Of a stretch of DNA of 15,937 bases, positions 2,257 to 15,937 are shown in pieces. The notes under the pieces were generated by a model. That model was not told where the DNA came from and ran no database searches. It saw nothing but the letters and a program-made list of their open reading frames with translations. The stretch is from a virus (lineage: Duplodnaviria; Heunggongvirae; Uroviricota; Caudoviricetes). How positions within the stretch are numbered: position 1 is the first letter of the stretch; each line of letters opens with the position of its first letter. Location of the stretch: IMG/VR virus record IMGVR_UViG_2737471841_000003. One strand, given 5' to 3'. Position numbers and translations under genes: made by a program.

Positions 2257-2261
2257 AAAAT

Positions 2262-2463: not shown

Positions 2464-2539
2464 GGTGTACCTCCTATTGCACTGGCTACGCCAGGTAGCC
2501 ACAGCTACCCCGCAGGGTGTTACCGCCGTTAACGTCCAT

Positions 2540-3728: not shown

Positions 3729-3743
3729 TTTCCCCTTGCCTTG

Positions 3744-3905: not shown

Positions 3906-3940
3906 AAAATAAGCTCCTTGAAGAATACAGGTAAAAGGAT

Positions 3941-3978
3941 AATAAAAAAGGGAGGGAGGTTGTTAGCCTCTCCTCCCT
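3941..3978 (-). terminator. Intrinsic terminator or stabilising hairpin just downstream of the major capsid gene
   Basis: On the - strand: GGGAGGAGAGG, loop CTAACAA, CCTCCCTCCC, then CTTTTTTATT. It begins about 20 nt after the capsid stop at 3996. Phages commonly place a strong hairpin after the capsid gene. Confidence 0.5.
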
Positions 3979-3995
3979 TGTATTTAGCTATCAGA

Positions 3996-5024
3996 TTATG
4001 CCGCTTCGGTTAATTTCAGTTTAAAAATGAAATCTGGCCTACTATTGAGGTACGCGGTATGGGATTCACAGAAGATTTTACGCTGGGTGTTAGTCTGTTC
4101 TAACCAGTAAATTTCCCGTGCAGGTGCACCGCTCATTGCATAGCGTAAATTACGGGTTGCAGGTCCCACAATTTCACTCATGCAAGGCAGGAAAGTATTC
4201 TTGCGAACTGCCGGAACAGCGTAAGCATGACCTTCTTTCATGAATGAATCGTCACAGCTGATAATAGTGATAGCAATGCCATCTACCTGGAATACAGAAT
4301 AACCCGGCAGATGTTCACCATCAAATACCATGCTGGATTTAACAGTACCATTACCGAACATAATAGCGCGGCGAATGTCTTTATCATCGTAACGCAGGCG
4401 ATCATAAGTTGAGCTATCTACGAAGAGATAAACCCCACCAAATGAGTGAACTAAACCGCCCATTTGTTTTTTGACCAGTTTTACAATTCGTTCAAGCTCA
4501 CGGATGAGATCGCCACCCAGGTTTAACTCATCTTCGGACTGTTTAAACTTGCCACCCAGTTCCTCGACAATATCGATATCCCCACCTTTGAAATGAATCA
4601 CGTTATCAAAGAGAGCGCGCTGCATAGCTTTTTCTCTTGCAATTTCAAGGCGTTGTTTCATGCTCAACAGGTGTTCACCCGTCACATCGTCCAAGGTTTT
4701 CTCACGATTGGTGCCTGGTTTGCGGTGACCCTGGAAAGCGCTGGCGCTGATCTGAGATTCCAGTGCATAAGCAGGAACACGCAGCATTAAAGTTTGTGCT
4801 GTACCTGTTACGATGCTGCCATAATCACCCAGATCATAATCGCTTACAACTGGGGCAGCTGATTGGGTTGCTGCAATAACGTTATCGAACACGAAGGAGG
4901 TTGTACTGGTGTAAATTTTTTCATTAAACAAGCCCAGAGAAGTGATCAGCTGGTTTTCTAATGTTGGTTCTAGCATCACACATTCTGTGACATCTTTATA
5001 ATCGAATAATTGAAAGTCTGCCAT
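3996..5024 (-). CDS. Major capsid protein, lambda gpE family (342 aa)
   Basis: Size matches lambda E (341 aa). Recalled local similarity to lambda gpE: KNTFLP vs KNFLP, SGAPAREIYW vs GDPAREFTM, and a similar central hydrophobic block. ATG at 5024. It sits directly downstream of a small decoration-like gene, as in lambda D-E. Confidence 0.7.
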   Translation of the reverse strand: MADFQLFDYKDVTECVMLEPTLENQLITSLGLFNEKIYTSTTSFVFDNVIAATQSAAPVVSDYDLGDYGSIVTGTAQTLMLRVPAYALESQISASAFQGHRKPGTNREKTLDDVTGEHLLSMKQRLEIAREKAMQRALFDNVIHFKGGDIDIVEELGGKFKQSEDELNLGGDLIRELERIVKLVKKQMGGLVHSFGGVYLFVDSSTYDRLRYDDKDIRRAIMFGNGTVKSSMVFDGEHLPGYSVFQVDGIAITIISCDDSFMKEGHAYAVPAVRKNTFLPCMSEIVGPATRNLRYAMSGAPAREIYWLEQTNTQRKIFCESHTAYLNSRPDFIFKLKLTEAA

Positions 5025-5036
5025 TCCATCCCCCTA

Positions 5037-5360
5037 TTAAAGTGCTAATTTGACATGTTCGTTTAACAGGTGGGGAATAGCTTCCGGAGGATTAATTCCG
5101 AAAGAATTTAATACCACACCGATCCCGTGAACAATAACTAATTTGTCGCCTTTTTTAGCTGGTTCCAATACCACAAATAAAGCAGGCATCTCTTCTTCGT
5201 CAGCGTCGAATTTTGCCCCTTCTGCGGTAATAACATCGCCAGGGAATAAATCCTCAGTTAATGCCGTTTTCAGTTCCAGAGCTTTTTGTTCAAACTCGGG
5301 GTCCATGGAATAGGCGACCACATCTGCACGTGTTTTACGCGGCTTATCAGAAAATAACAT
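5037..5360 (-). CDS. Putative head decoration protein (107 aa), lambda gpD-like by position and size
   Basis: ATG at 5360 with GAGGT SD. Its stop is 12 nt upstream of the capsid gene start. 107 aa vs 110 aa for lambda D. Sequence similarity to gpD was not confidently recognised; the call is positional. Confidence 0.45.
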   Translation of the reverse strand: MLFSDKPRKTRADVVAYSMDPEFEQKALELKTALTEDLFPGDVITAEGAKFDADEEEMPALFVVLEPAKKGDKLVIVHGIGVVLNSFGINPPEAIPHLLNEHVKLAL

Positions 5361-5429
5361 CGTGTTACCTCATCTCTATCGCATTTATCAGATTTAATGT
5401 ATTAGAATCTCACCTCTGATACATTAATA

Positions 5430-5460
5430 AAGGCCACCCCTTCAGGTTGGGTAGCCTTGA
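5430..5460 (-). terminator. Terminator-like hairpin upstream of the head genes (- strand)
   Basis: On the - strand: GGCTACCC, loop AACCTGAA, GGGTGGCC (8-bp stem with one G.U), then TTTATTAATG. It lies about 70 nt upstream of the start at 5360. Confidence 0.3.
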
Positions 5461-5913
5461 TAATGGACCAGGTGCATAATCCAGAGCACGAAGATTATTC
5501 TCTGGTCATTCGTCTGTCGAGGTGATTTAAATGTGAAGTGAATCAGGCATTACTGCCTCAATCCATATAATAAAACCTCCCCCTAGCCCAGAGAGAGGCC
5601 TTATTATTTACTAGGATATATGAATGACTGATTTCAGTCTGGCAGATTCGCTAATAGCTCACCGCCTGGCACTTATTATCGCCTTCATTAGATCACCACA
5701 AATAATGTCGGCTATGGGAGAATGTAACCCGCTCCCAGTTGTTCACAGTACAACCAGACTTTTTACTGGAGAAAGTAATATCCACTCGTATAAATATTAC
5801 CTTCTTTAAAGGCCCTCGCTACGGTGGAAAGAAGAGGTAGCACAGAACAACCAGCAAAGACCTTTAAAGAAGTACGCCCAGCATCAAGGGGAAAATGATG
5901 AAAAAGCTCTGAG

Positions 5914-5942
5914 CTTCCGGGCGTTGACAAGTACAGGAGAAC
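5914..5942 (+). promoter_or_regulatory. Near-consensus sigma70 promoter (TTGACA, 17-bp spacer, TATTAT; TG immediately upstream of the -10)
   Basis: TTGACA at 5914-5919, TATTAT at 5937-5942, TG at 5935-5936. Confidence 0.45.
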
Positions 5943-6018
5943 ACTGTATTATCCAATAATCGGTGAGATGTAGGTGAGATAACTCGAAAGGTGTAACCAT
6001 GAAAGTATCTACATCATA

Positions 6019-6038
6019 GTATTATGATAACATAATAC
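6019..6038. promoter_or_regulatory. Inverted repeat (GTATTATG ATAA CATAATAC), candidate operator or RNA hairpin in the leader
   Basis: 8-bp arms separated by 4 bp, downstream of the 5914 promoter and followed 16 nt later by a T7 run (6055-6061). Confidence 0.3.
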
Positions 6039-6095
6039 TTGCCGTTTGTCAATCCTTTTTTCAAAGAAATTTAAAAAATTTTTCTCTCCGCCTCT

Positions 6096-6142
6096 TTTCT
6101 CGATCAAACAATTGAAAAAACTATTGACTGAGGCGTTAGAAT
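6096..6142 (+). promoter_or_regulatory. Promoter for the homing-endonuclease-like gene: 13-bp upstream box TTTCTCGATCAAA, then -35 TTGAAA and -10 TAGAAT (19-bp spacer)
   Basis: The box at 6096-6108 is identical to 14751-14763, which sits in the same position relative to the consensus promoter at 14768. -35 at 6112-6117, -10 at 6137-6142. The spacer is longer than optimal. Confidence 0.35.
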
Positions 6143-6182
6143 GTGATACGGTTCACCACAAATGGTAAGTGGAGGGTGCGAT

Positions 6183-7013
6183 ATGAAAGAGAGAAAACAG
6201 GCTTTAGCTAAAACAACAGAGCAGTTCATCGCTGAGGCAAGGAAAGTGCATGGTGATAAGTACGATTATTCGAAAGTTGAATACGTGAATATGCGCACTG
6301 AGGTTTGTATCATTTGCCCAATACATGGGGAGTTCACACAAAGACCAGAGAACCATCTTCGCGGTAACAGAGGAAAGGGGTGTGGTTGCCCTATTTGTAA
6401 ACCTTGGAGAAAACGCCTGACACGAGAAGAGTTCGAAAGGAGGGTAAAAGAGGTACACGGTGATAACCTGGATGTTTCACAGTTCGATTATAAAAACGTT
6501 CACACAGAGGGTATTGTTAAGTGCAACAGGTGCGGCATGACGTTCTCGATACAGGCACAAGCGATTATCCTTAGAAATTCTGATGGTAGTCTTCTAGGCG
6601 GTTGCCCTGTGTGTGACCATCTACACAGAGACGCGGAATATGTTTATTTGGCGCTGGATGATCCACACTTTCCGACGAGATTTAAGATCGGGGTAACAAG
6701 CAACCCACAGGACAGATTGATAACTTTGAAGTGTAGAACACCTTTCAGGGTGTTTATGAAATGTTGTTTCAAAGTAGGAAAAGTGAAGGCGCGGAGGCTG
6801 GAGTACTTCCTGCACAACTTCTACAACTTCTGCAATTGTGGTTATGAATCAAGAAAGGACTTTCAGGGTGCAACAGAGTGGTTTTATTACCTGCAAAGTA
6901 AAGTAGGGGTGAAGAGGGTGCTCAAGATGTTAGTAAAACTGGTAAACGCCAGGAGCTACAACCGCCACTACATAAAGCATAAAAAGCCAACGTTTAAACG
7001 CACTTTGTTTTAA
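6183..7013 (+). CDS. Homing-endonuclease-like protein: two N-terminal Zn-ribbon repeats plus a C-terminal T5orf172 (GIY-YIG-like) domain
   Basis: Start moved to ATG 6183 (GGAGGG SD at 6171-6176); the track start at 6162 lacks an SD. Two tandem repeats of HGDKYDYSKVEY...C.ICP.HGEF.Q.P..HL.G.GC..C, then YVYLALDDPHFPTRFKIGVTSNPQDRL...EYFLH...ATEWFYY, which matches the T5orf172 pattern as I remember it. Confidence 0.65.
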   Translation: MKERKQALAKTTEQFIAEARKVHGDKYDYSKVEYVNMRTEVCIICPIHGEFTQRPENHLRGNRGKGCGCPICKPWRKRLTREEFERRVKEVHGDNLDVSQFDYKNVHTEGIVKCNRCGMTFSIQAQAIILRNSDGSLLGGCPVCDHLHRDAEYVYLALDDPHFPTRFKIGVTSNPQDRLITLKCRTPFRVFMKCCFKVGKVKARRLEYFLHNFYNFCNCGYESRKDFQGATEWFYYLQSKVGVKRVLKMLVKLVNARSYNRHYIKHKKPTFKRTLF

Positions 7014-7064
7014 TGGTGGGCCAGGGATGGTTATTGACTCTCAATCATTATTTTAAAAAAGATG

Positions 7065-7093
7065 TTGACTACCACACGGTAAAAGTGTATAAA
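7065..7093 (+). promoter_or_regulatory. Near-consensus sigma70 promoter (TTGACT, 17-bp spacer, TATAAA)
   Basis: TTGACT at 7065-7070, TATAAA at 7088-7093, about 40 nt upstream of the 7131 ORF. Confidence 0.5.
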
Positions 7094-7130
7094 GGGCCTA
7101 AAGAAAGAGAAGTGGCAAAGGAGGTAAAAA

Positions 7131-7250
7131 ATGTTCAGGCTGATGGTGAATGTCCTGGCGATAATCTTCGGGTTAGTGCTCTTTCTGATGGCCTGGAGCG
7201 TTATCTTTGAAGTAGTGGATATAGTGATGGCGATGTTAATGATTAAATAA
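7131..7250 (+). CDS. 39-aa hydrophobic single-TM peptide (MFRLMVNVLAIIFGLVLFLMAWSVIFEVVDIVMAMLMIK); not in the ORF track
   Basis: ATG at 7131 preceded by AGGAGG (7119-7124) at 6-nt spacing and by the 7065 promoter. TAA at 7248-7250. The overlapping track ORF 7013..7210 in another frame has no SD and covers the promoter. Confidence 0.4.
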   Translation: MFRLMVNVLAIIFGLVLFLMAWSVIFEVVDIVMAMLMIK

Positions 7251-7266
7251 CGCAGGAGGCAAGATC

Positions 7267-7329
7267 ATGAAACATTGGGAAGTGATTGCACTGTTCATCA
7301 TAATGTTTGTGATGTGCATCGAGTTTTAA
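7267..7329 (+). CDS. 20-aa hydrophobic peptide (MKHWEVIALFIIMFVMCIEF); not in the ORF track
   Basis: ATG at 7267 preceded by AGGAGG (7254-7259) at 7-nt spacing. TAA at 7327-7329. It is very short, so this is tentative. Confidence 0.3.
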   Translation: MKHWEVIALFIIMFVMCIEF

Positions 7330-7364
7330 CATTAGTCGATCAATATATTGAAGAGGTGACTACT

Positions 7365-7916
7365 ATGAAAACTATCAAAACTATCGCCGCTGTGGTCCTG
7401 GCAATGTTTGTGGGCAATGCTAATGCCGCCCTGGTGATCACAGACCAAGACATTGAAGACCACATGGAGACAATGGAGGTTTACTACCAGGCTGAGGATA
7501 TTGATTGTGAGATCTGGAGCAAGATGTTCACGAAAGGGGTAATTGAAGGTAACGACAAGTTCAGGCACGGTATCCGTGTTCACAAAGACCTCACAATTGT
7601 TGCCATGAAAGCTAAATCGGAGTTCTACAACAAATACGCAGGGGAGGTTGTCAAATCTGGCGCAAGTAAAGGATACAGCAAGGAGAGAGTAGATCAGATT
7701 AGAGATGTTTACATCGGTGCTTACATCGGTGCGGCCGAGATGAAATCTCGCGTAAACAGCAAGTTCGGCAAAGCCGCTGATCTTAACTCTGTAGCTAAAA
7801 AGAGAGCAGAAGCCGATCATTGGTTCAATTTCTGTGTGAAAGTGAAAGAAGAATATCCGGTCGTATTGTTCAACGAGTGGTTAGCTATAGCACAGCTGGC
7901 AGAAGATGATTTTTAA
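7365..7916 (+). CDS. Secreted (periplasmic) protein with Sec signal peptide, 183 aa
   Basis: Start moved to ATG 7365 (GAGGTG SD at 7353-7358). N-terminus MKTIKTIAAVVLAMFVGNANA/AL has n-, h- and c-regions with a predicted cleavage after ANA. There is no Cys at +1, so it is not a lipoprotein. The track start at 7275 lacks an SD. Confidence 0.6.
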   Translation: MKTIKTIAAVVLAMFVGNANAALVITDQDIEDHMETMEVYYQAEDIDCEIWSKMFTKGVIEGNDKFRHGIRVHKDLTIVAMKAKSEFYNKYAGEVVKSGASKGYSKERVDQIRDVYIGAYIGAAEMKSRVNSKFGKAADLNSVAKKRAEADHWFNFCVKVKEEYPVVLFNEWLAIAQLAEDDF

Positions 7917-7946
7917 CCGGGGACGATCATCGACTCAAAAAAGTGA

Positions 7947-7975
7947 TTGACAACGGAGGTGAGATCCGGTATAGT
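7947..7975 (+). promoter_or_regulatory. Near-consensus sigma70 promoter (TTGACA, 17-bp spacer, TATAGT)
   Basis: TTGACA at 7947-7952, TATAGT at 7970-7975, upstream of the 8011 gene. Confidence 0.5.
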
Positions 7976-8010
7976 TCACCACATAGAGAAGAGATACGGA
8001 GGGCAGCAAG

Positions 8011-8391
8011 ATGAAAACTTTCAATTGGGTTAAACCACAGATGTTACGTCGCGCCAATAACCACGGTGAGGGTGTACGCCACCACAACGACGCACCTGCA
8101 CCGGACATGAAGAAGGCACGCAAAGTGATCAATCTTCGTCAGGACGCGGCTATCGCTCGCAACCTGAAAGCAGAAGCGAAAAACCGTAACCCGTTGGAGG
8201 CAATTCTTGTTGCCCTGGTCAATGACCATGCAGCTCATTTCCGTCATTTCAATGGCATCAACCAGTACCAGATGGCAGAAGCCAACCGTAAAGAAGAAGA
8301 GCGGATCCTGGCTGGACTGGTACACGTTGAGATTGAACCTGAACCGGAACCGGAGGAAATTCATTGGGACCTCTGGAAAATGGCAGCTTAG
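8011..8391 (+). CDS. Hypothetical early protein (126 aa)
   Basis: ATG at 8011 with GGAGGG SD at 7998-8003. Contains a PEPEPE stretch. Function unknown. Confidence 0.6.
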   Translation: MKTFNWVKPQMLRRANNHGEGVRHHNDAPAPDMKKARKVINLRQDAAIARNLKAEAKNRNPLEAILVALVNDHAAHFRHFNGINQYQMAEANRKEEERILAGLVHVEIEPEPEPEEIHWDLWKMAA

Positions 8392-8452
8392 TCCACAGAG
8401 TGGATTTCACAGAGTGAAACCTGATAACAGGCAGCTTGAGGAGGCTTGAATC

Positions 8453-8917
8453 ATGAAAATTTTCAGTATTGAACATTACGAAGACAAAATTGAAGAGCTG
8501 GAAAGACTGGCTGAGATTGCAGATTATCGCGCGGGGTACGCCGCTGGACTTGCGGAAGTTCGGGAAAAAATACTTAAAAAATTCCACAGCTTGTACTATG
8601 TCCTGGCGGTTGCTGAGCAAGAACAAGATGAGGAGCTGTACGAGTACACGTCGTGCCGTATCCTGGAAATGGCGGGTGTGTACGGCATAATCAAGGCGGG
8701 AGAGGTGATCTCAGACGAAGAGATTGCGAAGAGACTTCGTAAACGCATCGAAAACGCATACTTTGAAGCGATCTACTATACGAAAAAAAGCACGGAGCTG
8801 TATAAACGCATAACTGCGGCGACGAAAGTTGTCACTCAGCTACAGAAAGTAAAAATCTTCAAACTGAAAGCGGCGTTGGCTATCGGTAAAATGTTTTTCC
8901 CACATCGTTTCAATTGA
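8453..8917 (+). CDS. Hypothetical early protein (154 aa)
   Basis: ATG at 8453 with GAGGAGG SD. Function unknown. Confidence 0.65.
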   Translation: MKIFSIEHYEDKIEELERLAEIADYRAGYAAGLAEVREKILKKFHSLYYVLAVAEQEQDEELYEYTSCRILEMAGVYGIIKAGEVISDEEIAKRLRKRIENAYFEAIYYTKKSTELYKRITAATKVVTQLQKVKIFKLKAALAIGKMFFPHRFN

Positions 8918-8945
8918 TTAAATAATAAACAGAGGAGACTGTAAA

Positions 8946-9314
8946 ATGAGTTACGAAAACTGCTGTTTCTGTGTGGAAGATGTGCCGCCAGTCATTCTGG
9001 AGCGTCACGGTGTGAAAACGTATCTGCCGATGATTCTGATGTTCGAGCATTTCCTCGATCATGGTGATGACGGTTTTTATGTCGGTTATAGTGAGGACGA
9101 TTTCCCTCCTGACTTGCTGAAAGAGTTGGAAGAAAAAGGCATCATTGAAGTATTTGATCAAACTGACGTGGATAATGGTGTGTGGGTAAGGGTTAAAAAA
9201 GAGATTCACATTGAACGTCTGCAACTTGCGGCAGAAGTCCAGGGCCTTGAGATTCTCGACATGAGCGACTACCTCAAACAACTGGACGAAGCATACAAGG
9301 CGCACGATTTATAG
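8946..9314 (+). CDS. Hypothetical acidic early protein (122 aa)
   Basis: ATG at 8946 with AGAGGAG SD. Tightly spaced after the preceding gene. D/E-rich. Confidence 0.65.
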   Translation: MSYENCCFCVEDVPPVILERHGVKTYLPMILMFEHFLDHGDDGFYVGYSEDDFPPDLLKELEEKGIIEVFDQTDVDNGVWVRVKKEIHIERLQLAAEVQGLEILDMSDYLKQLDEAYKAHDL

Positions 9315-9327
9315 GGGAGACACACAG

Positions 9328-9642
9328 ATGAATAAAGACGTGATTGAACTGCTGGAACAACTGAACAAGGCCGCTGAGTATATCCTGGCCGATGTGAAGG
9401 TCCTGGATGGTCACTTGTTGCTGGCGAGCAAGTCAGCCACACAGGAAGGAAGGGACAGGGCTGTCGAGCTATACGTTCAGGATGCTGCACATCTTATAAA
9501 CAAATGGTTGCCTGATGTGGGTGTCGAGGTGACAAACTACGCAGAAGCAACGGCGGCGCATATGGTGCTGATGCATCTGGCAATTGATAGTTACCGTAGT
9601 AACATGTTAGCAATGCTGGACTTCATGAAGGCTAAAAATTAA
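9328..9642 (+). CDS. Hypothetical early protein (104 aa)
   Basis: ATG at 9328 with GGGGAG SD, 14 nt after the preceding stop. Confidence 0.6.
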   Translation: MNKDVIELLEQLNKAAEYILADVKVLDGHLLLASKSATQEGRDRAVELYVQDAAHLINKWLPDVGVEVTNYAEATAAHMVLMHLAIDSYRSNMLAMLDFMKAKN

Positions 9643-9704
9643 TCGTACTCGATCAATAGTTCAATTTTACTTATGAATTGTGGAGAGCATAAGAGGTTCC
9701 AACA

Positions 9705-10226
9705 ATGAAAACTGAACTCAAACATGAAATTCTAAACGCTTTTAACAACCGTATCGAGGCCATAGTGGATGGTCAACCTGGCGGGATGTTCTTTGTGGAG
9801 GAAGCCATAGAGCTGGCTAAAGCGGAGGAAGCAGTAGAGAGAATACTCAACATCCCACACAGTGATCAATGTCTGGTAGATAGGTATCTATACGGCTTCA
9901 TGCGACTGGTCCGGCATTATTGCGAGGTGCCTGTGGACCATCATTTTATCAGTATGATCTACGCCGATGCTTCTGACTTCTTCTACAGGCTAGATCACAG
10001 AATAGACGAAATGATTGTTGTGTTACTGGCGGGATCTGATGACGAAAGGTTGTTAGACGTAGAACCTGATGAACTGGTGAAAAAACTTATTGAGCGTGTT
10101 TATCGGGAAATGGAGGCAGACGTAGAGGCAGCGGGTGAAGATGGAAGAATGCGGCAGAAGCTGGAGGCCGCGTATAAGGCCAGGCCGAAGGATGATGATG
10201 ACGATACGGAAGGAATCCCATTCTGA
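9705..10226 (+). CDS. Acidic early protein (173 aa) with an SSB-like C-terminal tail (...KDDDDDTEGIPF)
   Basis: ATG at 9705 with AAGAGG SD. Strongly acidic overall. The C-terminal codons were checked directly: GAC GAT ACG GAA GGA ATC CCA TTC TGA. Confidence 0.65.
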   Translation: MKTELKHEILNAFNNRIEAIVDGQPGGMFFVEEAIELAKAEEAVERILNIPHSDQCLVDRYLYGFMRLVRHYCEVPVDHHFISMIYADASDFFYRLDHRIDEMIVVLLAGSDDERLLDVEPDELVKKLIERVYREMEADVEAAGEDGRMRQKLEAAYKARPKDDDDDTEGIPF

Positions 10227-10277
10227 GCTATTGGGGCCGTCACTGGCCCCGCTTACCAACTAATCGGAGAGCATAAG

Positions 10278-10553
10278 ATGAAACTCAAACTTATCGAAAG
10301 TCAGCTGAACATGTTCTTTAAGATGGCAAGTGTGATCATTGTGGACGGTGAACAATTCGCGGGTCCAGTGCCACACAGTAGCATCGTTTTAGATATCAAC
10401 AGAGAGGCCCTTAAATGCGTTGTGGAGGCCGTATTTAATCAGGATGTAAAAGTGTATAGGCTTATGGAGTTTGAGCTACAGGAGCGCGATTTACGCATCA
10501 TAGAGCGACATTTGAAGGCTGAGCAAGCCGCAGAAGAGTTGAACCTGGATTAA
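10278..10553 (+). CDS. Hypothetical early protein (91 aa)
   Basis: ATG at 10278 with GGAGAG SD. Confidence 0.6.
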   Translation: MKLKLIESQLNMFFKMASVIIVDGEQFAGPVPHSSIVLDINREALKCVVEAVFNQDVKVYRLMEFELQERDLRIIERHLKAEQAAEELNLD

Positions 10554-10662
10554 GGGGGTGTATACCCCGAACATTGTGAGAGGTGTGAGATGGCTAAACA
10601 AATACTTTCAATTGTTCCACTGTGGAAACTGAATCATAAATTCGTAAAAAAATGGTAAACCA

Positions 10663-11013
10663 GTGCTGTTTACATACCTTGATGCGCTGGTCTTCGGTTA
10701 CATAGCACGAGCTAACTATGGGGGCAAGTGGTTCAACTTCGTAATGAAGAATGCAATCTACGACCTCTATACAAGCGAGAAGGAGATAACGCACAGCGTT
10801 GAAAAACTGGTTATGTTAAGACTTATCAAAATAATGCCGGGTGAAAGTTTGCCTAACTGCCACATGGTGGCGCAAGTCACTCATAAGGAATTGGAAGACA
10901 CGATCAATAGGTATATCGAGCGTGAAAGAATGTCTTGCGCGATGATCGACCTTGATGAAGAGAGGAGGAAACAATTCCAGGGTAATGATGAATGGGAAGA
11001 TTGTCCTTTTTAA
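10663..11013 (+). CDS. Hypothetical protein (116 aa from a GTG start; start uncertain), C-terminus ...NDEWEDCPF
   Basis: The ORF is open from 10648. The first start codon is GTG at 10663 with no clear SD; an alternative ATG at 10744 has a weak SD. It is preceded by a 22-codon uORF (10590-10658, SD GAGAGGTG) that ends in an A7 run. Confidence 0.45.
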   Translation: MLFTYLDALVFGYIARANYGGKWFNFVMKNAIYDLYTSEKEITHSVEKLVMLRLIKIMPGESLPNCHMVAQVTHKELEDTINRYIERERMSCAMIDLDEERRKQFQGNDEWEDCPF

Positions 11014-11030
11014 TGTAGGGGGGTGGCAAA

Positions 11031-12008
11031 ATGACTACAGAAGTGATGATCCAGATTTTCGAATCTGATTTAAATAATGATGGTAACTTAGTCCCGGTTG
11101 TTAACGCCCGTGAGTTTTACGAAGCGCTTGGGATGCGAAAAGATTATGGAAATTGGATCAGGTGGCATCTTCGGAAATTTGAAAAAAATCGGGACTTTAT
11201 TACTTTTATCGATAAGTCGGGAGAACATCCGCGTCATAACTATTTTATCACTTTGGACACTGCAAAGCACATATGCAGGGTGAGCCAACGCCAGGAAGGT
11301 GAGCAGTTGCTACAGTATTTAATTAAAGTTGAAAAAAGATACCGTTTAGTACTGGACCCACAACCACAGATTCCTGTTTACACACAGTCACAGATTCCTG
11401 TTTACACACAGTCACAGATTCCTGTTTACACACAGACGGAACCTGAACCGTTGCCAGGAACACCGGAACATTTTGCCCGTGCATTTACGGAGGCTTACCA
11501 ACAGATATACGGGGCAACAGATCAGCAGCCAGTCATTGAGCACAATACGGAACCTGTGGTTCCTTGTTGGGGAGCTGGGTCTAATCAGAGCCTCGAGGTC
11601 CAGGATGTGCAGGAAGTACGACCGCCAGCACCTGTGCTGGGGTATTACAATCCTTGCCCGGACAACAAAATCAACATGAAAGGCTTAAAAGAATACCTGA
11701 GCAATGAACGCCTGATCAAGTACCTCATTAAAAAATTCAACATTGAAAATGAGATTTATGATTATGGTTACATAAATGTGAAAGGGAAAGCTGAGTCGGA
11801 GATTGTGTACGATAAACGTAAAACGCTGGCGATCTTACATGCCGCTTACGCTTTGAGTACTAGAGTAAACGCCACACAGAGAGAGTTTATGGGGATAGTA
11901 TTCACGATGTACAGGGTGTTAAGAGACACACATTATGATAAGGACATGTACGATACAGCTTACACTCTTCTTGAAGAGGATATAAACAAATTGTATAAAA
12001 TTGATTGA
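11031..12008 (+). CDS. Antirepressor-like protein with N-terminal AntA-type domain (325 aa)
   Basis: ATG at 11031 with a G-rich SD. The N-terminus (VVNAREFYEALGMRKDYGNWIRWHLRKFEKNRDFITF...YFITLDTAKHI) matches the AntA/AntB antirepressor N-terminal pattern as I remember it. Contains a triplicated QIPVYTQS repeat. Confidence 0.65.
   Translation: MTTEVMIQIFESDLNNDGNLVPVVNAREFYEALGMRKDYGNWIRWHLRKFEKNRDFITFIDKSGEHPRHNYFITLDTAKHICRVSQRQEGEQLLQYLIKVEKRYRLVLDPQPQIPVYTQSQIPVYTQSQIPVYTQTEPEPLPGTPEHFARAFTEAYQQIYGATDQQPVIEHNTEPVVPCWGAGSNQSLEVQDVQEVRPPAPVLGYYNPCPDNKINMKGLKEYLSNERLIKYLIKKFNIENEIYDYGYINVKGKAESEIVYDKRKTLAILHAAYALSTRVNATQREFMGIVFTMYRVLRDTHYDKDMYDTAYTLLEEDINKLYKID
11367..11438 (+). repeat. 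Three tandem 24-bp direct repeats (CAGATTCCTGTTTACACACAGTCA) inside the antirepressor-like gene
   Basis: Units at 11367-11390, 11391-11414 and 11415-11438; the third differs in its last bases. In frame, encoding QIPVYTQS x3. Confidence 0.9.
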
Positions 12009-12086
12009 GCATCTATACTCGATCACAACTCAACAATAAAGACGGAGAGTCGAGAGCATGACTCTCCTCAACCCCGGAGGCCCAAC

Positions 12087-12362
12087 ATGTATTACTACGA
12101 TTGCAAAGACCCGATTCTGGCTGAACGTAACCGCCTGGCTAATGAGATCGCCCAACAGGCAAAAGAGAAAAAAGCCCAACAGCGTATGGAGCTTGGAAAA
12201 GAGATTTACAGACTCCACACAGACGGCTACACAATGGAATGTATAGCCAAAAAGCTGGGAATGTCTGAACCAACAGCCTACAGACTGCAACGGGCATATC
12301 TGAAAGCTAACCCGCACCTCAAAGTGTTCTCGGGGCGTGTTGCGGCACGGGGTCGTAGTTAA
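12087..12362 (+). CDS. Small HTH DNA-binding protein (91 aa), resolvase/sigma-region-4-like HTH
   Basis: ATG at 12087 with GGAGG SD (12076-12080). The segment GYTMECIAKKLGMSEPTAYRLQRAY is HTH-like. Its stop lies 10 nt before the first operator-like palindrome. Confidence 0.6.
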   Translation: MYYYDCKDPILAERNRLANEIAQQAKEKKAQQRMELGKEIYRLHTDGYTMECIAKKLGMSEPTAYRLQRAYLKANPHLKVFSGRVAARGRS

Positions 12363-12371
12363 CACACACTA

Positions 12372-12408
12372 GGGACAAAATGTCCTACCTACCCGGGACA
12401 AAATGTCC
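12372..12408. promoter_or_regulatory. Two copies of a 14-bp palindromic operator-like site, GGGACAAAATGTCC, 23 bp centre to centre
   Basis: Exact copies at 12372-12385 and 12395-12408. Each is a dyad (GGACA-N3-TGTCC). Confidence 0.5.
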
Positions 12409-12409
12409 A

Positions 12410-12419
12410 CCCCCCCCCC
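12410..12419. repeat. Homopolymeric C10 tract
   Basis: Ten consecutive C at 12410-12419, directly after the second operator copy. Confidence 0.9.
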
Positions 12420-12449
12420 GGCAATATGTGATTCCCGGAAGACACATGT

Positions 12450-12486
12450 TTGTACAAATTGTAGTCACTGATTGTACAGATTGTAG
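12450..12486. repeat. Two direct repeats TTGTACA(A/G)ATTGTAG spaced 22 bp
   Basis: 12450-12464 and 12472-12486. Each has a TGTACA palindromic core. Confidence 0.6.
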
Positions 12487-12490
12487 CACT

Positions 12491-12573
12491 ATACCGGTTT
12501 TCCGATAGAGCTATACCGGATTTCCGGTAGAGGTATACCGCTTTTCCGGTATAGGTATACCGGATTTCCGGTA
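12491..12573. repeat. Iteron array: four 17-bp dyad-symmetric sites (ATACCGG-N-TTTCCGGTA) at exactly 22-bp spacing; putative replication origin or partition/regulator binding array
   Basis: Sites at 12491-12507, 12513-12529, 12535-12551 and 12557-12573. Arms TACCGGA and TCCGGTA are reverse complements. Followed by an AT-rich stretch (12574-12622), the same layout as the lambda origin (four dyad iterons plus an AT-rich region). Confidence 0.6.
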
Positions 12574-12622
12574 ACTATTAGATCAATCTATTACATCAAG
12601 AAAAAAGATCACTTATTATATT

Positions 12623-12645
12623 AAGGGCCTTGCCCTTTTTGTTGT
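12623..12645 (+). terminator. Terminator-like hairpin (AAGGGC, loop CTT, GCCCTT, then TTTGTTG)
   Basis: 6-bp GC-rich stem with a 3-nt loop, then a T-run, at the end of the AT-rich region. It would terminate read-through from the 12087 gene across the iterons. Confidence 0.35.
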
Positions 12646-13845
12646 GGGATTGATTGGTGGGATTGATCTTACTGATAGTATAATACTCCACCAATCAACC
12701 CTAAGTTGTGGGAGAGTACGGAGCAGACTGCGACTACAGAGCAGGCTGAGAAGTACTCAATGGGTGTAAGGGATTAAGGGACCCACACACATTTCCACAC
12801 ACAGAGTAAAGCCAGAGGCTTTATGAAGTGTAAGAGTAATGCCTAAAGAGTCGAAGCACACTTTAGGCTATATTGTGTGGGAGGTATCTGTACATAGTAC
12901 AGAGTACTCCCCATTATGTGGGGGCAATCCTGCCCGTAAGGGCAGCTCATGTGATTCGCAGCCGTAAGCTGAACTGCGACGAAGAAGGCTGCAAAGGTTC
13001 TCGGCCCGGTTACAATTACGCAACAATTTTATAATCTATCGTTAACCTATACCACTATCACAATTTCTATAGTTGAGTCCTACTATCCCCTACACCATAA
13101 AATCAATTTTAAGCCACACTCAGCCTACGGCTTCACGGTAAAACGTGTTTTAACCCACATAATGGCCCCTGTAGTGAGCTAAATGGTATACACCGCTATA
13201 ATTGGGTTACTTATGAGATAACCTCGTTAGAATCGATTCTAGAGCGTTTTAGAGCTTGAAATCCATCCTGCAAACTGCAAGATGATGATTCTATCGGGGA
13301 AGAATTTTTTTCCTTCCCGTAAGTCGTACCGTAGAGCAGATTTGCTTTACGAGCTTTCTCACACCTCAGGCCTCTGGCCTTCATGGAGTATCGGAGATAC
13401 GACTCACCGCATATACTCTGTTTTCAGTGCTACCCTGATCGCATCCGACCCTTTTCAGAGGCACTTTTAACCGCATTCTGGCACGCTACAACAGCAAGAA
13501 ATAGGCTGATTCTACTGATTTTACCTTACAATACAGGTACATAGCAGAAGGGCAGGAATATACTGTGAGAATGGTTGCTAGACCGGGCCTTCTTCTCTCT
13601 GTGTGTGCATTCTGAAACCGTTATGTAGTCGAGTATATAACGACTGGTCAGACCAGTGCAGGGCTGAAAATGATGATCGGTCACCACAATTATGGGCAAA
13701 TTACTGTACATTCATACAGTAGTTATACATAAAGAATATGCATCGATTGCTCTTTAGGCACAGATGTTATAATGTAACAATTAATTTAGTTTACCTCGGT
13801 AATCACTGTGTGGACATGTCACGCAACTAAACTAAATCCGAAGAG

Positions 13846-13854
13846 TTATCCACA
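13846..13854 (+). promoter_or_regulatory. Consensus DnaA box TTATCCACA
   Basis: Exact 9-mer match to the R-type DnaA box, single copy. Nearby are an 8-bp palindrome GACATGTC (13812-13819) and a 10-bp inverted repeat, ATTTAGTTTA (13783-13792) with TAAACTAAAT (13827-13836). Confidence 0.3.
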
Positions 13855-14687
13855 GATTGGGGGTAAATCATCAACATAGTCTGTAGCCTCTGACAGAGAG
13901 CAAAAAGAAAGGCCTTTTATGTGATCAATATCACGTTTCTGGGGTAGTTCTGGAGGCTTAGGTGCGGGGAAGTAGTGCGTACTGACACCAGAGGCCGCAT
14001 AAAACAAGGGGATTTAACATAATGGATCTTGTATACACCACACCTCACCACGTTGAAATCTGATCTTACTTTGAGGCTATCTGCCAACAGAATCCGCGTA
14101 CATGCACCATAACCTGTATGTGGGATGCAATAATAAAGGCCCTGGCGGCCCACAGGCCGCATGAATACTGGGCTTGTCATAGATATGGGCCTGTATCGCT
14201 ATGTAGATGCGGGATGACCTGTAAGGGTGTGGCAGGTGGCAGGGGCTGGAGGGCACGGTACAGCACAGCTAATGGGTGAGGCCCCAGATATTTGAGAATC
14301 ACTCTCACCTGAGAATAATTATCAGTAACTCCTGCCTAGTACCACCCCTGTAGGTAAGGTTGATCATTGCCCACATTGCTGGTATACTTTATCTGTGGGA
14401 AAGTAACGCCGTTACTTCCGCGAACGCTGTGCGTGATGTGTGGGAGAATGTGCCTGCGTAATAAAAAAATTGAAAATTACTCATCTGTCAACATTTCAAT
14501 GACGTATGTCAATCATTTATGCTATGTGTTTACTTTATAATCAATCACTTACGAATTTAATGAAATAAATGCATTTAAATAGGGTGAAACTCAAATCTAA
14601 CCCCTGAAACTGTGTTGATAAAGGGGCGTGAAGCCCGGCGTAGGTAACTCGTTACCCGCCAGTGTTATTGATAATTCTCATTTACGT

Positions 14688-14716
14688 TTGACAATGCAAT
14701 CCCAATGGTGTATAAT
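14688..14716 (+). promoter_or_regulatory. Perfect consensus sigma70 promoter (TTGACA, 17-bp spacer, TATAAT)
   Basis: TTGACA at 14688-14693 and TATAAT at 14711-14716, in an AT-rich upstream context. Confidence 0.6.
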
Positions 14717-14750
14717 AGACTATAAGGGGTAAGATAGAATCTTTACTCAA

Positions 14751-14796
14751 TTTCTCGATCAAAGGTATTGACAAATGAGAGTAAAGGTGTTATACT
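14751..14796 (+). promoter_or_regulatory. Second tandem near-consensus promoter (13-bp box TTTCTCGATCAAA, then TTGACA, 17-bp spacer, TATACT)
   Basis: Box at 14751-14763, -35 at 14768-14773, -10 at 14791-14796. It lies 80 bp downstream of the 14688 promoter. Confidence 0.6.
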
Positions 14797-14885
14797 TATC
14801 TATAACAGCAAAACTCTACTTTAGAGCCGCTCCATGAGGAGCAAAGCTCCGAAGTGTGATCATAGTCGGTAAATCCCTTACTTAC

Positions 14886-14918
14886 CGGGGGCACTTCTCC
14901 AGCCCCCTCTCTTTTTAA
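14886..14918 (+). terminator. Intrinsic terminator in the leader (GGGGGC, 9-nt loop, GCCCCC, then TCTCTTTTTAA)
   Basis: Stem 14887-14892 pairs with 14902-14907, followed by a T-run at 14908-14916. It is about 110 nt downstream of the predicted start site and about 50 nt upstream of the 14969 start. Confidence 0.5.
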
Positions 14919-14968
14919 CGGTATGGTAAGAAAACATTCTTTATAAGTGATAAAAGAGGTAGTTAATC

Positions 14969-15208
14969 ATGGCTAAACCTTATTCAAATAGCTTTAACAT
15001 TGAAACAATGAGAGCTGATCAGATTGTAGACATGGTGAGGAACCAGGAACTTTCAGAGGAGACGCTCTACATGTTCATCTATCGCACGAAGAACCGTTAC
15101 CCGGAGGTAGATAAGGCATGGAAGGAGATCAAGCGCCTCAAAAAAGAGTTCAAGAAAGAAGCTGAATTGTACTGGCGCAAACGGTTTTTCTATAACTACA
15201 AAGGCTAA
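14969..15208 (+). CDS. Hypothetical basic protein (79 aa)
   Basis: ATG at 14969 with AGAGGT SD. K/R-rich C-terminal half. Confidence 0.6.
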   Translation: MAKPYSNSFNIETMRADQIVDMVRNQELSEETLYMFIYRTKNRYPEVDKAWKEIKRLKKEFKKEAELYWRKRFFYNYKG

Positions 15209-15240
15209 TCGGTAGAGATAACAAAGATAAAGGTGGAAAC

Positions 15241-15756
15241 ATGAGAGCAGTTTTTGATCAGCTGCCGTGGTGGCTTGATTTTCTCGAAGAACTGGACGGA
15301 AAGAAATTTAAACTGACAAAAGGTGAAGCGAGAGCATTTGCTTGTATTCTTACGTATGCCGCGACATGTGGTAAGATTTTCCCGTCACTCCACACAATAG
15401 CCCTTCATATGGGTTTACGGAGTGAAAAACGAGCGCCGACACAGGCGCATAAAGCGATCAAAGGCCTGGAGGAAAAAGGCCTTATACGTGTTAGCCGTCG
15501 CGCTGGGTGTGGAAACCATTATGAACTAGTTTACACAGCAGATCAACTCTTTGAGATGACAAAGCAACAGAATCCAGACTTGTTCAAAGGCTATGAAGAC
15601 ACGTTCGGAGAAGAGGATAGGGAGAGAGAACAGGCAGGGGATAAACCGAAGAAACATGATACAAAACAGGGGGTTACGTGTCAACATGACAACGGTCAAC
15701 CGGATGATATTCACATAGAAGCGTGTGATCTGGATGCTACTGACATACCATTTTAA
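15241..15756 (+). CDS. HTH_36-type winged-helix DNA-binding protein (phage replication/regulatory type), 171 aa, with SSB-like C-terminus (...DLDATDIPF)
   Basis: ATG at 15241 with AAGGTGG SD. The segment LTKGEARAFACILTYAATCGKIFPSLHTIALHMGLRSEKRAPTQAHKAIKGLEEKGLIRVSRR matches the HTH_36 pattern seen in the N-terminal domains of phage replication proteins. The terminal codons GAC ATA CCA TTT TAA were checked. Confidence 0.7.
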   Translation: MRAVFDQLPWWLDFLEELDGKKFKLTKGEARAFACILTYAATCGKIFPSLHTIALHMGLRSEKRAPTQAHKAIKGLEEKGLIRVSRRAGCGNHYELVYTADQLFEMTKQQNPDLFKGYEDTFGEEDREREQAGDKPKKHDTKQGVTCQHDNGQPDDIHIEACDLDATDIPF

Positions 15757-15824
15757 CATAAATCACAGCTCCGCATGAAGCTACGCTGAATAAATCACAC
15801 TGTATTAACAATGAGGTAACAAAA

Positions 15825-15937
15825 ATGAGTTTAGTTGAAAGATTGAAAAAAATCCTCGCCACAGAAGAGGTAGAGGAAGAGGAAGAAGTAGAGAAGGCGG
15901 CGGATCCTAAGCCTGAGAAGGCTGTGAATACCCAGAG
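15825..15937 (+). CDS. 5' end of a downstream gene (partial; MSLVERLKKILATEEVEEEEEVEKAADPKPEKAVNTQ...)
   Basis: ATG at 15825 with GAGGT SD (15813-15817). The ORF is open to the window end. Confidence 0.5.
   Translation, partial: MSLVERLKKILATEEVEEEEEVEKAADPKPEKAVNTQ

What the first reader, a model, noticed from the sequence alone, without database searches (positions are those of the whole stretch)
15241..15756. Replication-type HTH_36 protein ends in DIPF, the last four residues of E. coli SSB
The C-terminus ...DLDATDIPF reproduces the SSB tail tip (E. coli SSB ends ...DDDIPF), which is the docking element for many SSB partners (PriA, RecQ, ExoI, DNA polymerase III chi subunit and others). 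A phage initiator-like DNA-binding protein carrying this tip could recruit host replication-restart or primosome proteins to the phage origin, or compete with SSB for them.
Basis: partly seen in the sequence, partly recalled or inferred. Interest (0 to 1): 0.6.

Follow-up and report, generated by a model that had tools for sequence, protein, structure and literature searches.

The report
Initiator-like protein with an SSB-type tail
A small circular phage-like plasmid of E. coli encodes an origin-binding-type protein that has lost the usual C-terminal domain of its relatives and instead ends in a floppy acidic tail copying the docking tip of the host's SSB protein. This may be how it recruits host replication proteins, but the last residue is not strictly conserved in close relatives.

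Summary
ORF 15241-15756 (+) encodes 171 aa ending ...DLDATDIPF. The window is a complete 15,937-bp circle from an E. coli isolate, and E. coli SSB ends DFDDDIPF.

The protein has a confident winged-helix domain (residues ~7-115) followed by ~55 predicted-disordered, acidic residues. "HTH_36" is below threshold for this protein but is reached through relatives.

About 60 relatives (265-313 aa, on 13-14 kb E. coli circles) carry winged helix + linker + folded C-terminal domain, and none ends in IPF. Only the 11 short forms carry the tail, with consensus [DN]-[LFY]-D-x(1,2)-[DG]-I-P-hydrophobic. One ends NFDEDIPF.

Across elements, 22-23-bp tandem dyad repeats followed by A+T-rich DNA co-vary with the winged-helix domain, not with the C-terminal domain. 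That layout resembles lambda O.

Against the reading: only 4 of 11 short forms end in a free Phe. The others end FE, FD, L, I or GLT, and the tail evolves fast (pN/pS 0.60).

Best reading (about 0.4): the tail replaces the recruitment domain by docking host SSB-partner proteins at the origin. It is unproven and I found no precedent. Interest is moderate.

The parts
15241..15756 (+). Gene for the 171-aa protein (stop codon included)
   Evidence: exact protein is in NCBI as an E. coli hypothetical protein
15259..15585 (+). Winged-helix DNA-binding domain, residues ~7-115
   Evidence: AF2 pLDDT 76-92, H-H-H-beta-beta topology. Foldseek PDB hits: LexA DNA-binding domain, staphylococcal plasmid RepA N-terminal domain 4pt7/4pql, MecI/MarR. 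PHROG replication-initiation families at E 3e-5 to 4e-4. pN/pS 0.17
15598..15726 (+). Charged linker predicted disordered, residues 120-162
   Evidence: pLDDT mostly below 50. Net charge -4 for residues 119-150. pN/pS 0.33 for residues 119-150
15727..15753 (+). SSB-tip-like end D-L-D-A-T-D-I-P-F, residues 163-171; DIPF is 15742-15753
   Evidence: Family consensus [DN]-[LFY]-D-x(1,2)-[DG]-I-P-[FLI]. Synonymous changes inside the I and P codons
12489..12573 (.). Four tandem 22-bp repeats (CTATACCGGATTTCCGGTAGAG), each with an internal dyad ACCGGAnnTCCGGT; candidate binding sites of the winged-helix domain (candidate origin iterons)
   Evidence: Motif found 5 times against 0.34 expected. Equivalent arrays in related elements co-vary with the winged-helix domain
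12574..12623 (.). A+T-rich stretch (80% A+T) with two GATC sites next to the repeats; candidate unwinding region
   Evidence: window average 56% A+T; sequence
14688..14716 (+). Perfect sigma-70 consensus promoter-like site (TTGACA-17-TATAAT) upstream of the 79-aa and 171-aa genes; a second site (11 of 12) at 14768-14796
   Evidence: consensus match only
14969..15208 (+). 79-aa ORF always found directly upstream of the short-form gene; function unknown
15825..15937 (+). Start of a 72-aa ORF that continues in frame at window 1-106, showing that the window is a closed circle
   Evidence: An independent 15,926-bp assembly is 100% identical and contiguous across the window's end-to-start junction

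Best explanation
The 171-aa protein is the origin-binding protein of a 15.9-kb plasmid-like phage element of E. coli. Its winged-helix domain binds the four 22-bp dyad repeats at 12489-12573, beside an A+T-rich stretch, as dimers in a lambda O-some-like array. In about 60 longer relatives, a flexible linker carries a folded C-terminal domain that is exchangeable between DNA-binding specificities; I infer that this domain is the host-facing recruitment module. In this lineage that domain is gone. The linker ends instead in a short linear motif copying the host SSB C-terminal tip (D-phi-D..D-I-P-F-COOH). Several copies displayed from the repeat array would act like the four tails of an SSB tetramer and concentrate SSB-tip-binding host proteins at the opened origin. 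The most useful candidates are PriA or PriC (DnaB loading), DnaG primase, and chi-psi of the clamp loader. Shown: the ORF, the motif, the predicted disorder, loss of the C-terminal domain, repeat/winged-helix co-variation, circularity, and the host. Inferred: DNA binding to those repeats, the initiator role, any binding to SSB partners, and which partner.
For: The motif is identical to the host's tip. The resemblance covers the whole 8-9-residue SSB tip: an upstream D-[LFY]-D in 10 of 11 members, and P0004 ends NFDEDIPF against SSB's DFDDDIPF. I-P is invariant in 11 of 11 and D at -3 in 10 of 11, in the most variable part of the protein, with synonymous changes in those codons. Substitutes for the last residue are hydrophobic (L, I), and the two independent one-codon extensions are both acidic (GAA, GAT), which keeps a carboxylate next to Phe. 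The tail is predicted disordered and acidic, with ~55 residues of reach. All ~60 long forms have a folded C-terminal domain (pLDDT 77-93) in place of the tail, and none ends in IPF. The window has no homologue of that domain and no helicase, primase, loader or SSB gene. For the initiator role: PHROG replication-initiation, O-like and DnaD-like hits; best viral fold matches are phage 'replication' or 'replication initiator' proteins at E 1e-5 to 1e-3; the repeats follow the winged helix and not the C-terminal domain, since L008/L012 are 99%/38% identical with the same repeats and L007/L008 are 53%/98% identical with different repeats; A+T-rich DNA follows every array; related elements are finished circular E. 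coli plasmids. Precedents for a hub-binding peptide on a replication protein other than SSB: the clamp-binding motif of initiator TrfA (PMC4980987) and the gp2.5-like DTDF tail of T7 helicase gp4 (PMC12339929). The tetrapeptide DIPF alone binds ExoI and RecO, with IC50 of 102 and 45 uM (PMC10143822).
Against: Only 4 of 11 family members end in Phe with a free carboxylate; 3 end FE or FD, 2 end L, 1 ends I and 1 ends GLT. Removing the terminal Phe abolishes all tested SSB-partner interactions, and its alpha-carboxyl is a main contact (PMC10164576). The last 21 codons evolve at pN/pS 0.60. The window's tail has only one Asp directly before IPF (A-T-D-IPF) against three in SSB, and DIPF alone binds 10-20 times more weakly than the octapeptide. 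All 11 sequences are 78-92% identical, so conservation has little power. The initiator assignment rests on sub-threshold or weak profile and fold hits that generic repressor-type winged helices match about as well; a repressor-operator pair would co-vary in the same way. An 'SSB-like' tail on DdrB proved dispensable (PMC3834827). No binding data exist and no co-folding could be run.
Confidence: 0.4

Rival explanations
1. The resemblance is fortuitous. The short form is a truncated derivative of a long-form gene, and its disordered acidic remnant happens to end in DIPF. The tail has no specific partner, and the protein works through its winged-helix domain alone, as initiator, copy-control factor or repressor.
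For: The terminal residue varies among close relatives. Tail pN/pS is 0.60. Another truncated relative, P0076 (173 aa), ends inside the linker with no acidic tip. Part of the short-form linker (EEDREREQAGDKPKK) resembles the long-form linker consensus (KKERRERRRDAGKRE), consistent with descent by truncation. The DdrB precedent applies. The chance of DIPF is not negligible over a large scan.
Against: I-P, the D at -3 and the upstream D-phi-D persist in 10-11 of 11 members while neighbouring positions vary and synonymous sites have changed. Replacements at the last position are hydrophobic and both extensions are acidic. The lineage is found in at least 9 independent samples as an intact gene of constant length. 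An initiator without any recruitment module would need another route to the helicase.
Confidence: 0.3
2. The tail is a decoy. By occupying the SSB-tip pockets of host proteins (nucleases such as ExoI or RecJ, helicases RecQ or RecG, or SSB-dependent defence or repair factors), the protein protects or favours the element rather than assembling a replisome.
For: Same motif evidence as the main explanation. A perfect consensus promoter upstream could give high expression.
Against: SSB is abundant and tetravalent (own knowledge), so a weaker, partly non-canonical tail would compete poorly. The tail is tethered to a sequence-specific DNA-binding domain, which suits local recruitment. It occupies the position of a domain present in every long-form relative.
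Confidence: 0.1
3. The acidic tail acts in cis, folding back on the basic DNA-binding face of the winged helix as a DNA mimic to tune or auto-inhibit DNA binding, as the tails of SSB, T7 gp2.5 and T4 gp32 do on their own cores.
For: Net charge is +5 for residues 1-118 and -10 for residues 119-171. Tail-core contacts are known for SSB (Su et al. 2014, cited in PMC4980987).
Against: General acidity would be enough, so this does not explain the invariant I-P and the hydrophobic last residue. It is also compatible with the main explanation rather than exclusive of it.
Confidence: 0.1
4. The tail mimics another host peptide, for example the conserved C-terminal peptide of FtsZ (DYLDIPAFLRK, from my own knowledge), or is a C-terminal degradation tag.
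For: D-Y-x-D-I-P is shared with some members (DYDASDIPFE), and the variant DIPGLT has 'DIP-small-hydrophobic' like DIPAF.
Against: The tails stop right after the hydrophobic residue and lack the A-F-L-R-K helix that makes the FtsZ contacts (own knowledge). There is no Q-L-x-L-F clamp motif and no LAA-type tag. The match to SSB includes the terminus itself.
Confidence: 0.05

Closest known systems
C-terminal acidic tip of bacterial SSB (SSB-Ct; E. coli ...MDFDDDIPF)
   Same: The last four residues are identical to the host's. Both have an acidic run with an upstream hydrophobic or aromatic residue, sit at the end of a ~55-60-residue disordered linker, and are attached to a DNA-binding domain that would be present in several copies on its DNA.
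   Different: The carrier is a winged-helix protein of the double-stranded-DNA-binding type, not an OB-fold tetramer. There is one extra residue between D-phi-D and DIPF in most members and fewer Asp residues. The terminal Phe is not conserved in the family, whereas it is essentially invariant and essential in SSB. Partner binding is untested.
Lambda O-type phage initiators (N-terminal origin-binding domain, linker, C-terminal domain that recruits the helicase-loader complex)
   Same: Weak PHROG 'replication initiation O-like' hits. The long-form relatives are ~300 aa with the same three-part layout. Both use four tandem ~20-bp repeats with internal dyad symmetry followed by A+T-rich DNA.
   Different: There is no BLAST-level similarity to any of 50,697 phage records. 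The repeats lie 1.2-2.7 kb from the gene, not inside it. No P-like loader gene is present. In the window's protein the C-terminal domain is replaced by the tail.
RK2 initiator TrfA with its beta-clamp-binding motif (QLSLF)
   Same: A plasmid origin-binding initiator that carries a short linear motif for a host replisome hub and needs it for replisome assembly (PMC4980987).
   Different: TrfA's motif is internal and addresses the sliding clamp. Here the motif is terminal and copies the SSB tip, so it would address the set of SSB partners. There is no sequence relationship.
T7 gp4 helicase-primase C-terminal tail (..DTDF), which resembles the tail of the T7 ssDNA-binding protein gp2.5
   Same: A replication protein other than the SSB carries the SSB-type acidic tail ending in Phe and uses the same docking site on a partner.
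   Different: That is an all-phage system (the partner is T7 DNA polymerase). Here a mobile element would copy the host's tail to reach host proteins.
Staphylococcal multiresistance-plasmid RepA (RepA_N; PDB 4pt7/4pql)
   Same: A winged-helix N-terminal domain that binds iterons, among the best PDB fold matches, with a separate C-terminal part for host factor recruitment.
   Different: The fold match is weak (E ~5e-3) and no better than LexA or MarR. There is no sequence-family membership.

Membership tests
SSB C-terminal tip (SSB-Ct) motif | C-terminal-most residue is Phe with a free alpha-carboxylate | tested here: inconclusive
   Met in the window protein. In the family only 4 of 11 members meet it; the rest end FE (2), FD (1), L (2), I (1) or GLT (1).
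SSB C-terminal tip (SSB-Ct) motif | Penultimate Pro preceded by Ile or Leu | tested here: met
   I-P is invariant in 11 of 11 members, with synonymous codon changes.
SSB C-terminal tip (SSB-Ct) motif | Run of Asp before I-P-F plus an upstream aromatic residue (D-F-D-D-D) | tested here: inconclusive
   D at -3 in 10 of 11 members. Upstream D-[LFY]-D in 10 of 11 (N-F-D in P0004), but usually spaced by one extra residue, with non-acidic residues at -4 and -5 in the window (A, T).
SSB C-terminal tip (SSB-Ct) motif | Sits at the end of an intrinsically disordered linker | tested here: met
   AF2 pLDDT falls from 69 to 36 over residues 111-171 (10-residue block means) and stays below 50 for 136-153 and 155-171. 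This is a prediction only.
SSB C-terminal tip (SSB-Ct) motif | Binds the hydrophobic pocket, basic lip and basic ridge of SSB-interacting proteins | not testable with these tools
   No complex prediction or binding assay was available.
Bacterial SSB protein family (OB fold, PF00436) | OB-fold ssDNA-binding core | tested here: not met
   The fold is a winged helix and there is no SSB Pfam hit. The protein is not an SSB.
Pfam HTH_36 (PF13730) | Score at or above the gathering threshold of 25 bits | tested here: not met
   13.9 bits, E 0.048, for the window protein. Homologues do reach it: P0007 at 31.8 bits, and many carry precomputed PF13730 hits. Membership therefore holds only by transitive homology (profile E 1e-5 to 1e-3).
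Lambda O-like or iteron-type replication initiator | Sequence-specific binding to tandem repeats at an origin next to an A+T-rich region | tested here: inconclusive
   Repeats and A+T-rich DNA are present, and the repeats co-vary with the winged-helix domain across 5 elements. Binding and origin activity were not tested, and a repressor-operator pair would look the same.
Lambda O-like or iteron-type replication initiator | Separate C-terminal domain that recruits the helicase or its loader | tested here: not met
   Such a domain is present in long-form relatives, absent here, and has no homologue elsewhere in the window.
Rep_3 / RepE-RepA-pi iteron plasmid initiators | Two adjacent winged-helix domains, Pfam Rep_3 | tested here: not met
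   No Rep_3 hit. The model shows a single winged helix.
Beta-clamp-binding motif | Q-L-[SD]-L-F or a related pentapeptide | tested here: not met
   No such peptide in the tail (sequence).
FtsZ conserved C-terminal peptide mimic | D-I-P-x-F-L-R-K amphipathic helix | tested here: not met
   Only D-I-P(-F) is shared and the protein ends there. The FtsZ motif itself is from my own knowledge.

The most novel reading that the evidence does not exclude
An origin-binding protein of a mobile element has replaced its folded recruitment domain with a copy of the host SSB tail. A double-stranded origin decorated with the protein would then look like SSB-coated DNA to the host and nucleate a PriA- or PriC-type restart primosome (or primase and clamp loader) there. 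That would be replication initiation by hijacking the SSB interaction hub, independent of a dedicated helicase loader.
Probability: 0.3. Interest if true: 0.75.

Novelty: new variant of a known kind. Interest (0 to 1): 0.55.

Why it matters
The SSB tip is the address label for about 17 or more genome-maintenance proteins in E. coli (PMC7145534 abstract). I found no report of it being displayed by a protein that binds a double-stranded origin.

If the tail is functional, it would be a new and very economical way for a 16-kb element with no replication enzymes to assemble a host replisome. It would also be a natural domain-for-peptide swap, showing what the C-terminal domain of O-like initiators is for. 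It would further give a ready-made tool for recruiting SSB partners to a chosen DNA site.

It is cheap to test, with a peptide, a mini-replicon and a few point mutants. If the tail turns out to be inert, the case becomes a useful warning, like DdrB, against reading function from a four-residue match.

Tried and rejected
- Near-identical DNA in phages, plasmids and complete E. coli genomes: none.
- tblastn of the protein, the capsid protein and a long-form relative against 50,697 phage records: none.
- Related loci in IMG/VR, GTDB genomes and JGI metagenomes: none confirmed.
- Exhaustive profile search of 1.84 billion representatives: only one 50%-identity cluster for the short form.
- NCBIfam: only generic winged-helix hits far below cut-off.
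- PDB sequence search: weak LexA and SlyA hits only.
- Stop-codon reassignment as an explanation for the ORF-free 2.3 kb: rejected.
- Rfam at gathering and at E<=1: nothing.
- A DnaA box near the repeats: only one box in the window, at 13846, which is no more than chance.
- Copies of the 22-bp repeat near the gene's own promoter: none.
- Clamp-binding motif, FtsZ-peptide and degradation-tag readings were considered and set aside on the sequence.
- Literature searches for an initiator or phage protein carrying an SSB-Ct found none, and nothing on these 14-kb elements.

Full report
**1. The observation**

ORF 15241-15756 on the + strand starts at an ATG preceded by AAGGTGG. It encodes 171 residues and ends ...IHIEACDLDATDIPF followed by TAA. 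The exact protein is in NCBI as KHI93885.1/WP_047671634.1, 'hypothetical protein [Escherichia coli]', on contig JUDJ01000049.1 of assembly GCA_000798295.1. That contig has the same length as the window. The host is therefore E. coli, whose SSB ends DFDD-DIPF (PMC10143822; PMC5872125 abstract).

The chance of D-I-P-F at a given C-terminus is about 5e-6 from background frequencies, or 2e-5 using the tail's own composition. That is small for one window but not for a whole scan. The single sequence does not settle the matter.

**2. What the replicon is**

- The ORF that starts at 15825 runs off the window's end and continues in frame at positions 1-106. It matches the gene that follows the homologue in another contig.
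- An independent 15,926-bp assembly is 100% identical and contiguous across the window's end-to-start junction. The window is a closed 15.9-kb circle.
- It encodes a tape-measure protein, a Dit-like tail protein, an E-type major capsid protein, a T5orf172 endonuclease, an AntA-like protein and a small HTH_23 protein.
- It has no ORF large enough for a portal or a large terminase, and no helicase, primase, loader, polymerase or SSB.
- Nothing similar exists among 50,697 phage records.
- Distant relatives, with 28-47% identical core proteins, include two finished, non-mobilizable 13.5-13.7-kb E. coli plasmids. They also include dozens of E. coli, E. albertii and Shigella contigs of 13.3-14.4 kb.

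The carrier is thus a plasmid-like phage element, possibly a satellite, that must replicate entirely with host enzymes.

**3. The protein**

On its own it is below every Pfam threshold: LexA_DNA_bind E 0.012, HTH_36 E 0.048 at 13.9 bits against a cut-off of 25, DnaD_N E 0.14. It has weak PHROG hits to 'replication initiation' and 'O-like' families, at E 3e-5 to 4e-4.

The AlphaFold2 model gives a confident winged helix for residues ~7-115 (10-residue block means of pLDDT 76-92). Confidence then falls, and pLDDT stays below 50 for residues 136-153 and 155-171. PDB fold matches are the LexA DNA-binding domain, the N-terminal domain of the staphylococcal plasmid initiator RepA (4pt7/4pql), MecI and MarR. 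All are at E 5e-3 to 5e-2, so they are not discriminating.

An exhaustive profile search of 1.84 billion representatives finds a single 50%-identity cluster for this protein. It also finds a few distant hits of 276-306 aa that share only the first ~125 residues. A wider search returned 69 proteins. About 60 are long forms of 265-313 aa, many with a precomputed PF13730 hit. P0007 scores 31.8 bits, above the threshold.

A model of a long form shows a winged helix (residues 10-135), a disordered linker (141-189) and a well-predicted folded C-terminal domain (190-306, 10-residue block means of pLDDT mostly 73-93, one block 65). Its best matches among predicted viral structures are phage proteins named 'replication protein', 'replication initiator protein' or 'phage conserved hypothetical protein C-terminal domain', at E 1e-5 to 1e-3.

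'Replication-type HTH_36' is therefore reasonable by transitive homology, but it is not shown directly for this protein.

**4. Evidence bearing on an origin-binding role**

The window has four tandem 22-bp repeats at 12489-12573. Each has an internal dyad, ACCGGAnnTCCGGT. The motif occurs 5 times against 0.34 expected. The repeats are followed by 50 nt of 80% A+T containing two GATC sites.

Related elements have arrays of 2.5-3 copies with a 23-24-bp period at the equivalent place. Each is followed by a conserved CTAATAGAT-like flank and A+T-rich DNA.

| Pair | Winged-helix identity | C-terminal domain identity | Repeat array |
|---|---|---|---|
| L008 vs L012 | 99% | 38% | same |
| L007 vs L008 | 53% | 98% | different |

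L013 has a third winged-helix type and a third repeat. The blastn comparison of L007 and L008 shows the same modular swap.

So the winged-helix domain is the specificity module for these repeats, and the C-terminal domain is a generic, exchangeable module. Four dyad-symmetric repeats plus A+T-rich DNA, and a ~300-aa protein built as N-terminal domain, linker and C-terminal domain, is the lambda O layout (lambda details are from my own knowledge). A repressor-operator pair would co-vary in the same way. The initiator role therefore remains an inference. It is strengthened by the plasmid lifestyle and by the absence of any other replication gene.

**5. The tail in the family**

None of the ~60 long forms ends in IPF. 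All 11 short forms (171-177 aa, 78-92% identical) do carry a tail:

| Member | C-terminus |
|---|---|
| window, P0012 | DLDATDIPF |
| P0001, P0015 | DYDASDIPFE |
| P0002 | DFDYADIPL |
| P0003 | DLDTDDIPFD |
| P0004 | NFD-EDIPF |
| P0005 | DLDDSGIPF |
| P0013 | DLDAADIPL |
| P0014 | DFDDTDIPI |
| P0016 | DLDDSDIPGLT |

The consensus is [DN]-[LFY]-D-x(1,2)-[DG]-I-P-hydrophobic. It resembles the whole SSB tip D-F-D-D-D-I-P-F, not only its last four residues. P0004's NFDEDIPF matches 6 of 8 positions with the same spacing.

I-P is invariant and the codons carry synonymous differences (ATA/ATT, CCA/CCT). However, the last 21 codons as a whole evolve at pN/pS 0.60, against 0.17 for the winged helix and 0.33 for the linker. 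The two independent one-codon extensions after Phe are both acidic (GAA, GAT). The window has no homologue of the long-form C-terminal domain anywhere.

**6. How this weighs**

Known SSB-tip pockets bury the side chain of the terminal Phe, hold its alpha-carboxyl on a basic lip, and bind the Asp residues on a basic ridge. Deleting the Phe abolishes binding to every partner tested (PMC10164576). DIPF alone still binds ExoI and RecO, but 10-20 times more weakly than the octapeptide (PMC10143822).

By that standard the window's own tail is canonical at the tip. The family, however, keeps 'D-I-P + hydrophobic + a nearby carboxylate' rather than a strict Phe-COOH. Only 4 of 11 members are canonical.

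It can be reconciled with SSB-pocket docking if weak binding is enough because several copies sit on the repeat array. It fits a relaxed or different constraint equally well. DdrB, whose 'SSB-like' C-terminal motif proved dispensable (PMC3834827), is a caution.

**7. Best explanation and rivals**

My best reading has confidence ~0.4. The winged-helix domain binds the repeat array, and the tail replaces the lost C-terminal recruitment domain by presenting several SSB-type tips. These tips would concentrate SSB-binding host proteins at the opened origin. PriA or PriC for DnaB loading, DnaG, and chi-psi are the useful candidates (own knowledge of the E. coli pathways).

Rivals:
- A fortuitous remnant after truncation (0.3). 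In support, the truncated relative P0076 ends in the linker without any tip, and part of the short-form linker resembles the long-form linker.
- A decoy that competes with SSB (0.1).
- A cis-acting, DNA-mimicking, auto-inhibitory tail (0.1; compatible with the main reading).
- Another peptide mimic, such as the FtsZ C-terminal peptide, or a degradation tag (0.05).

**8. Comparison with what is known**

The closest functional precedents are the clamp-binding motif in the RK2 initiator TrfA (PMC4980987) and the gp2.5-like acidic Phe-terminated tail of T7 gp4 (PMC12339929).

I found no report of an origin-binding or phage/plasmid initiator-like protein carrying an SSB-Ct. The library searched is incomplete, so this is absence of evidence.

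The protein is not an SSB, since it has no OB fold. It is not a Rep_3 initiator. It is only transitively an HTH_36 protein. I rate it a new variant of a known kind, namely an initiator that uses a short hub-binding peptide, with interest 0.55.

**9. Limits**

- All conservation evidence comes from 11 closely related sequences.
- DNA binding, origin function and partner binding are untested.
- The fold of the long-form C-terminal domain could not be assigned.

Noticed in passing
whole window (1-15937); L007, L008, L012, L013, L014: The window is a complete 15.9-kb circle. It belongs to a large family of 13.3-16-kb circular elements of E. coli, E. albertii and Shigella that carry a major capsid protein, a tape-measure protein and a Dit-like protein, but no portal- or terminase-sized ORF. 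Two are deposited as non-mobilizable plasmids. None resembles any of 50,697 phage records. They may be plasmid-borne phage satellites; I found no paper on them.
   Followed up: partly
window ~12,640-14,690; L007 1995-4394; L008 7331-9536: An ORF-free stretch of about 2.2-2.4 kb is kept at the same place in all elements. It is as conserved between L007 and L008 (86-89%) as the coding parts. It is not explained by stop-codon reassignment and has no Rfam match even at E<=1. Its function is unknown; it could be a large RNA, a packaging site or an origin-associated region.
   Followed up: partly
window 12,600-13,000 and 14,700-15,000: In 200-nt windows, predicted folding energies are 3-5.6 SD below dinucleotide shuffles on both strands at 12,600-13,000. 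At 14,700-15,000 they are 1.6-4.3 SD below, about 3-4 SD on the + strand. Controls in the tape-measure gene average -0.4. The sequence has many GNRA-like (GTAA) hairpins next to the repeat array. This could be a structured RNA or single-strand DNA hairpins.
   Followed up: partly
window 11365-11435, inside the AntA-like ORF 11031-12008: A perfect 24-bp x 3.0 tandem repeat (CACAGATTCCTGTTTACACACAGT) encodes QIPVYTQS three times. A 100% identical repeat inside a gene may be a recent expansion or a second DNA-binding site array.
   Followed up: no
window 12372-12417: Two tandem 23-bp units, each with the palindrome GGGACAAAATGTCC, lie directly after the stop of the conserved HTH_23 gene (12087-12362) and are followed by a C10 run. 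They may be a site for that small DNA-binding protein (packaging or regulation).
   Followed up: no
L007 vs L008 vs L012 (wH genes L007 569-1486, L008 5517-6437, L012 8379-9287): The initiator-like genes are mosaics. The winged-helix half plus the repeat array, and the C-terminal-domain half, recombine independently between elements (99%/38% and 53%/98% identity).
   Followed up: yes
L014 1-423: A 46-bp unit is repeated 9.2 times at 100% identity at the end of the contig, just upstream of the 74-aa and initiator-like genes of a fourth winged-helix type. It is either a very large iteron array or an assembly artefact.
   Followed up: no
window 6162-7013 vs L001 7000-7566: At the same position, the window carries a T5orf172/DUF723-type endonuclease gene and the related contig L001 carries a serine recombinase (Resolvase) gene. 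This looks like a variable cargo slot.
   Followed up: no
P0076 (173 aa, on a 40,370-bp contig): This is another short relative of the long forms. It ends inside the linker (…RRERFRDAGKRA) with no acidic tip, showing that truncated versions without the SSB-like end also occur.
   Followed up: no
window 13846-13854: A single perfect DnaA box, TTATCCACA, sits in the middle of the ORF-free stretch. One match is what chance predicts (1.7 expected).
   Followed up: yes
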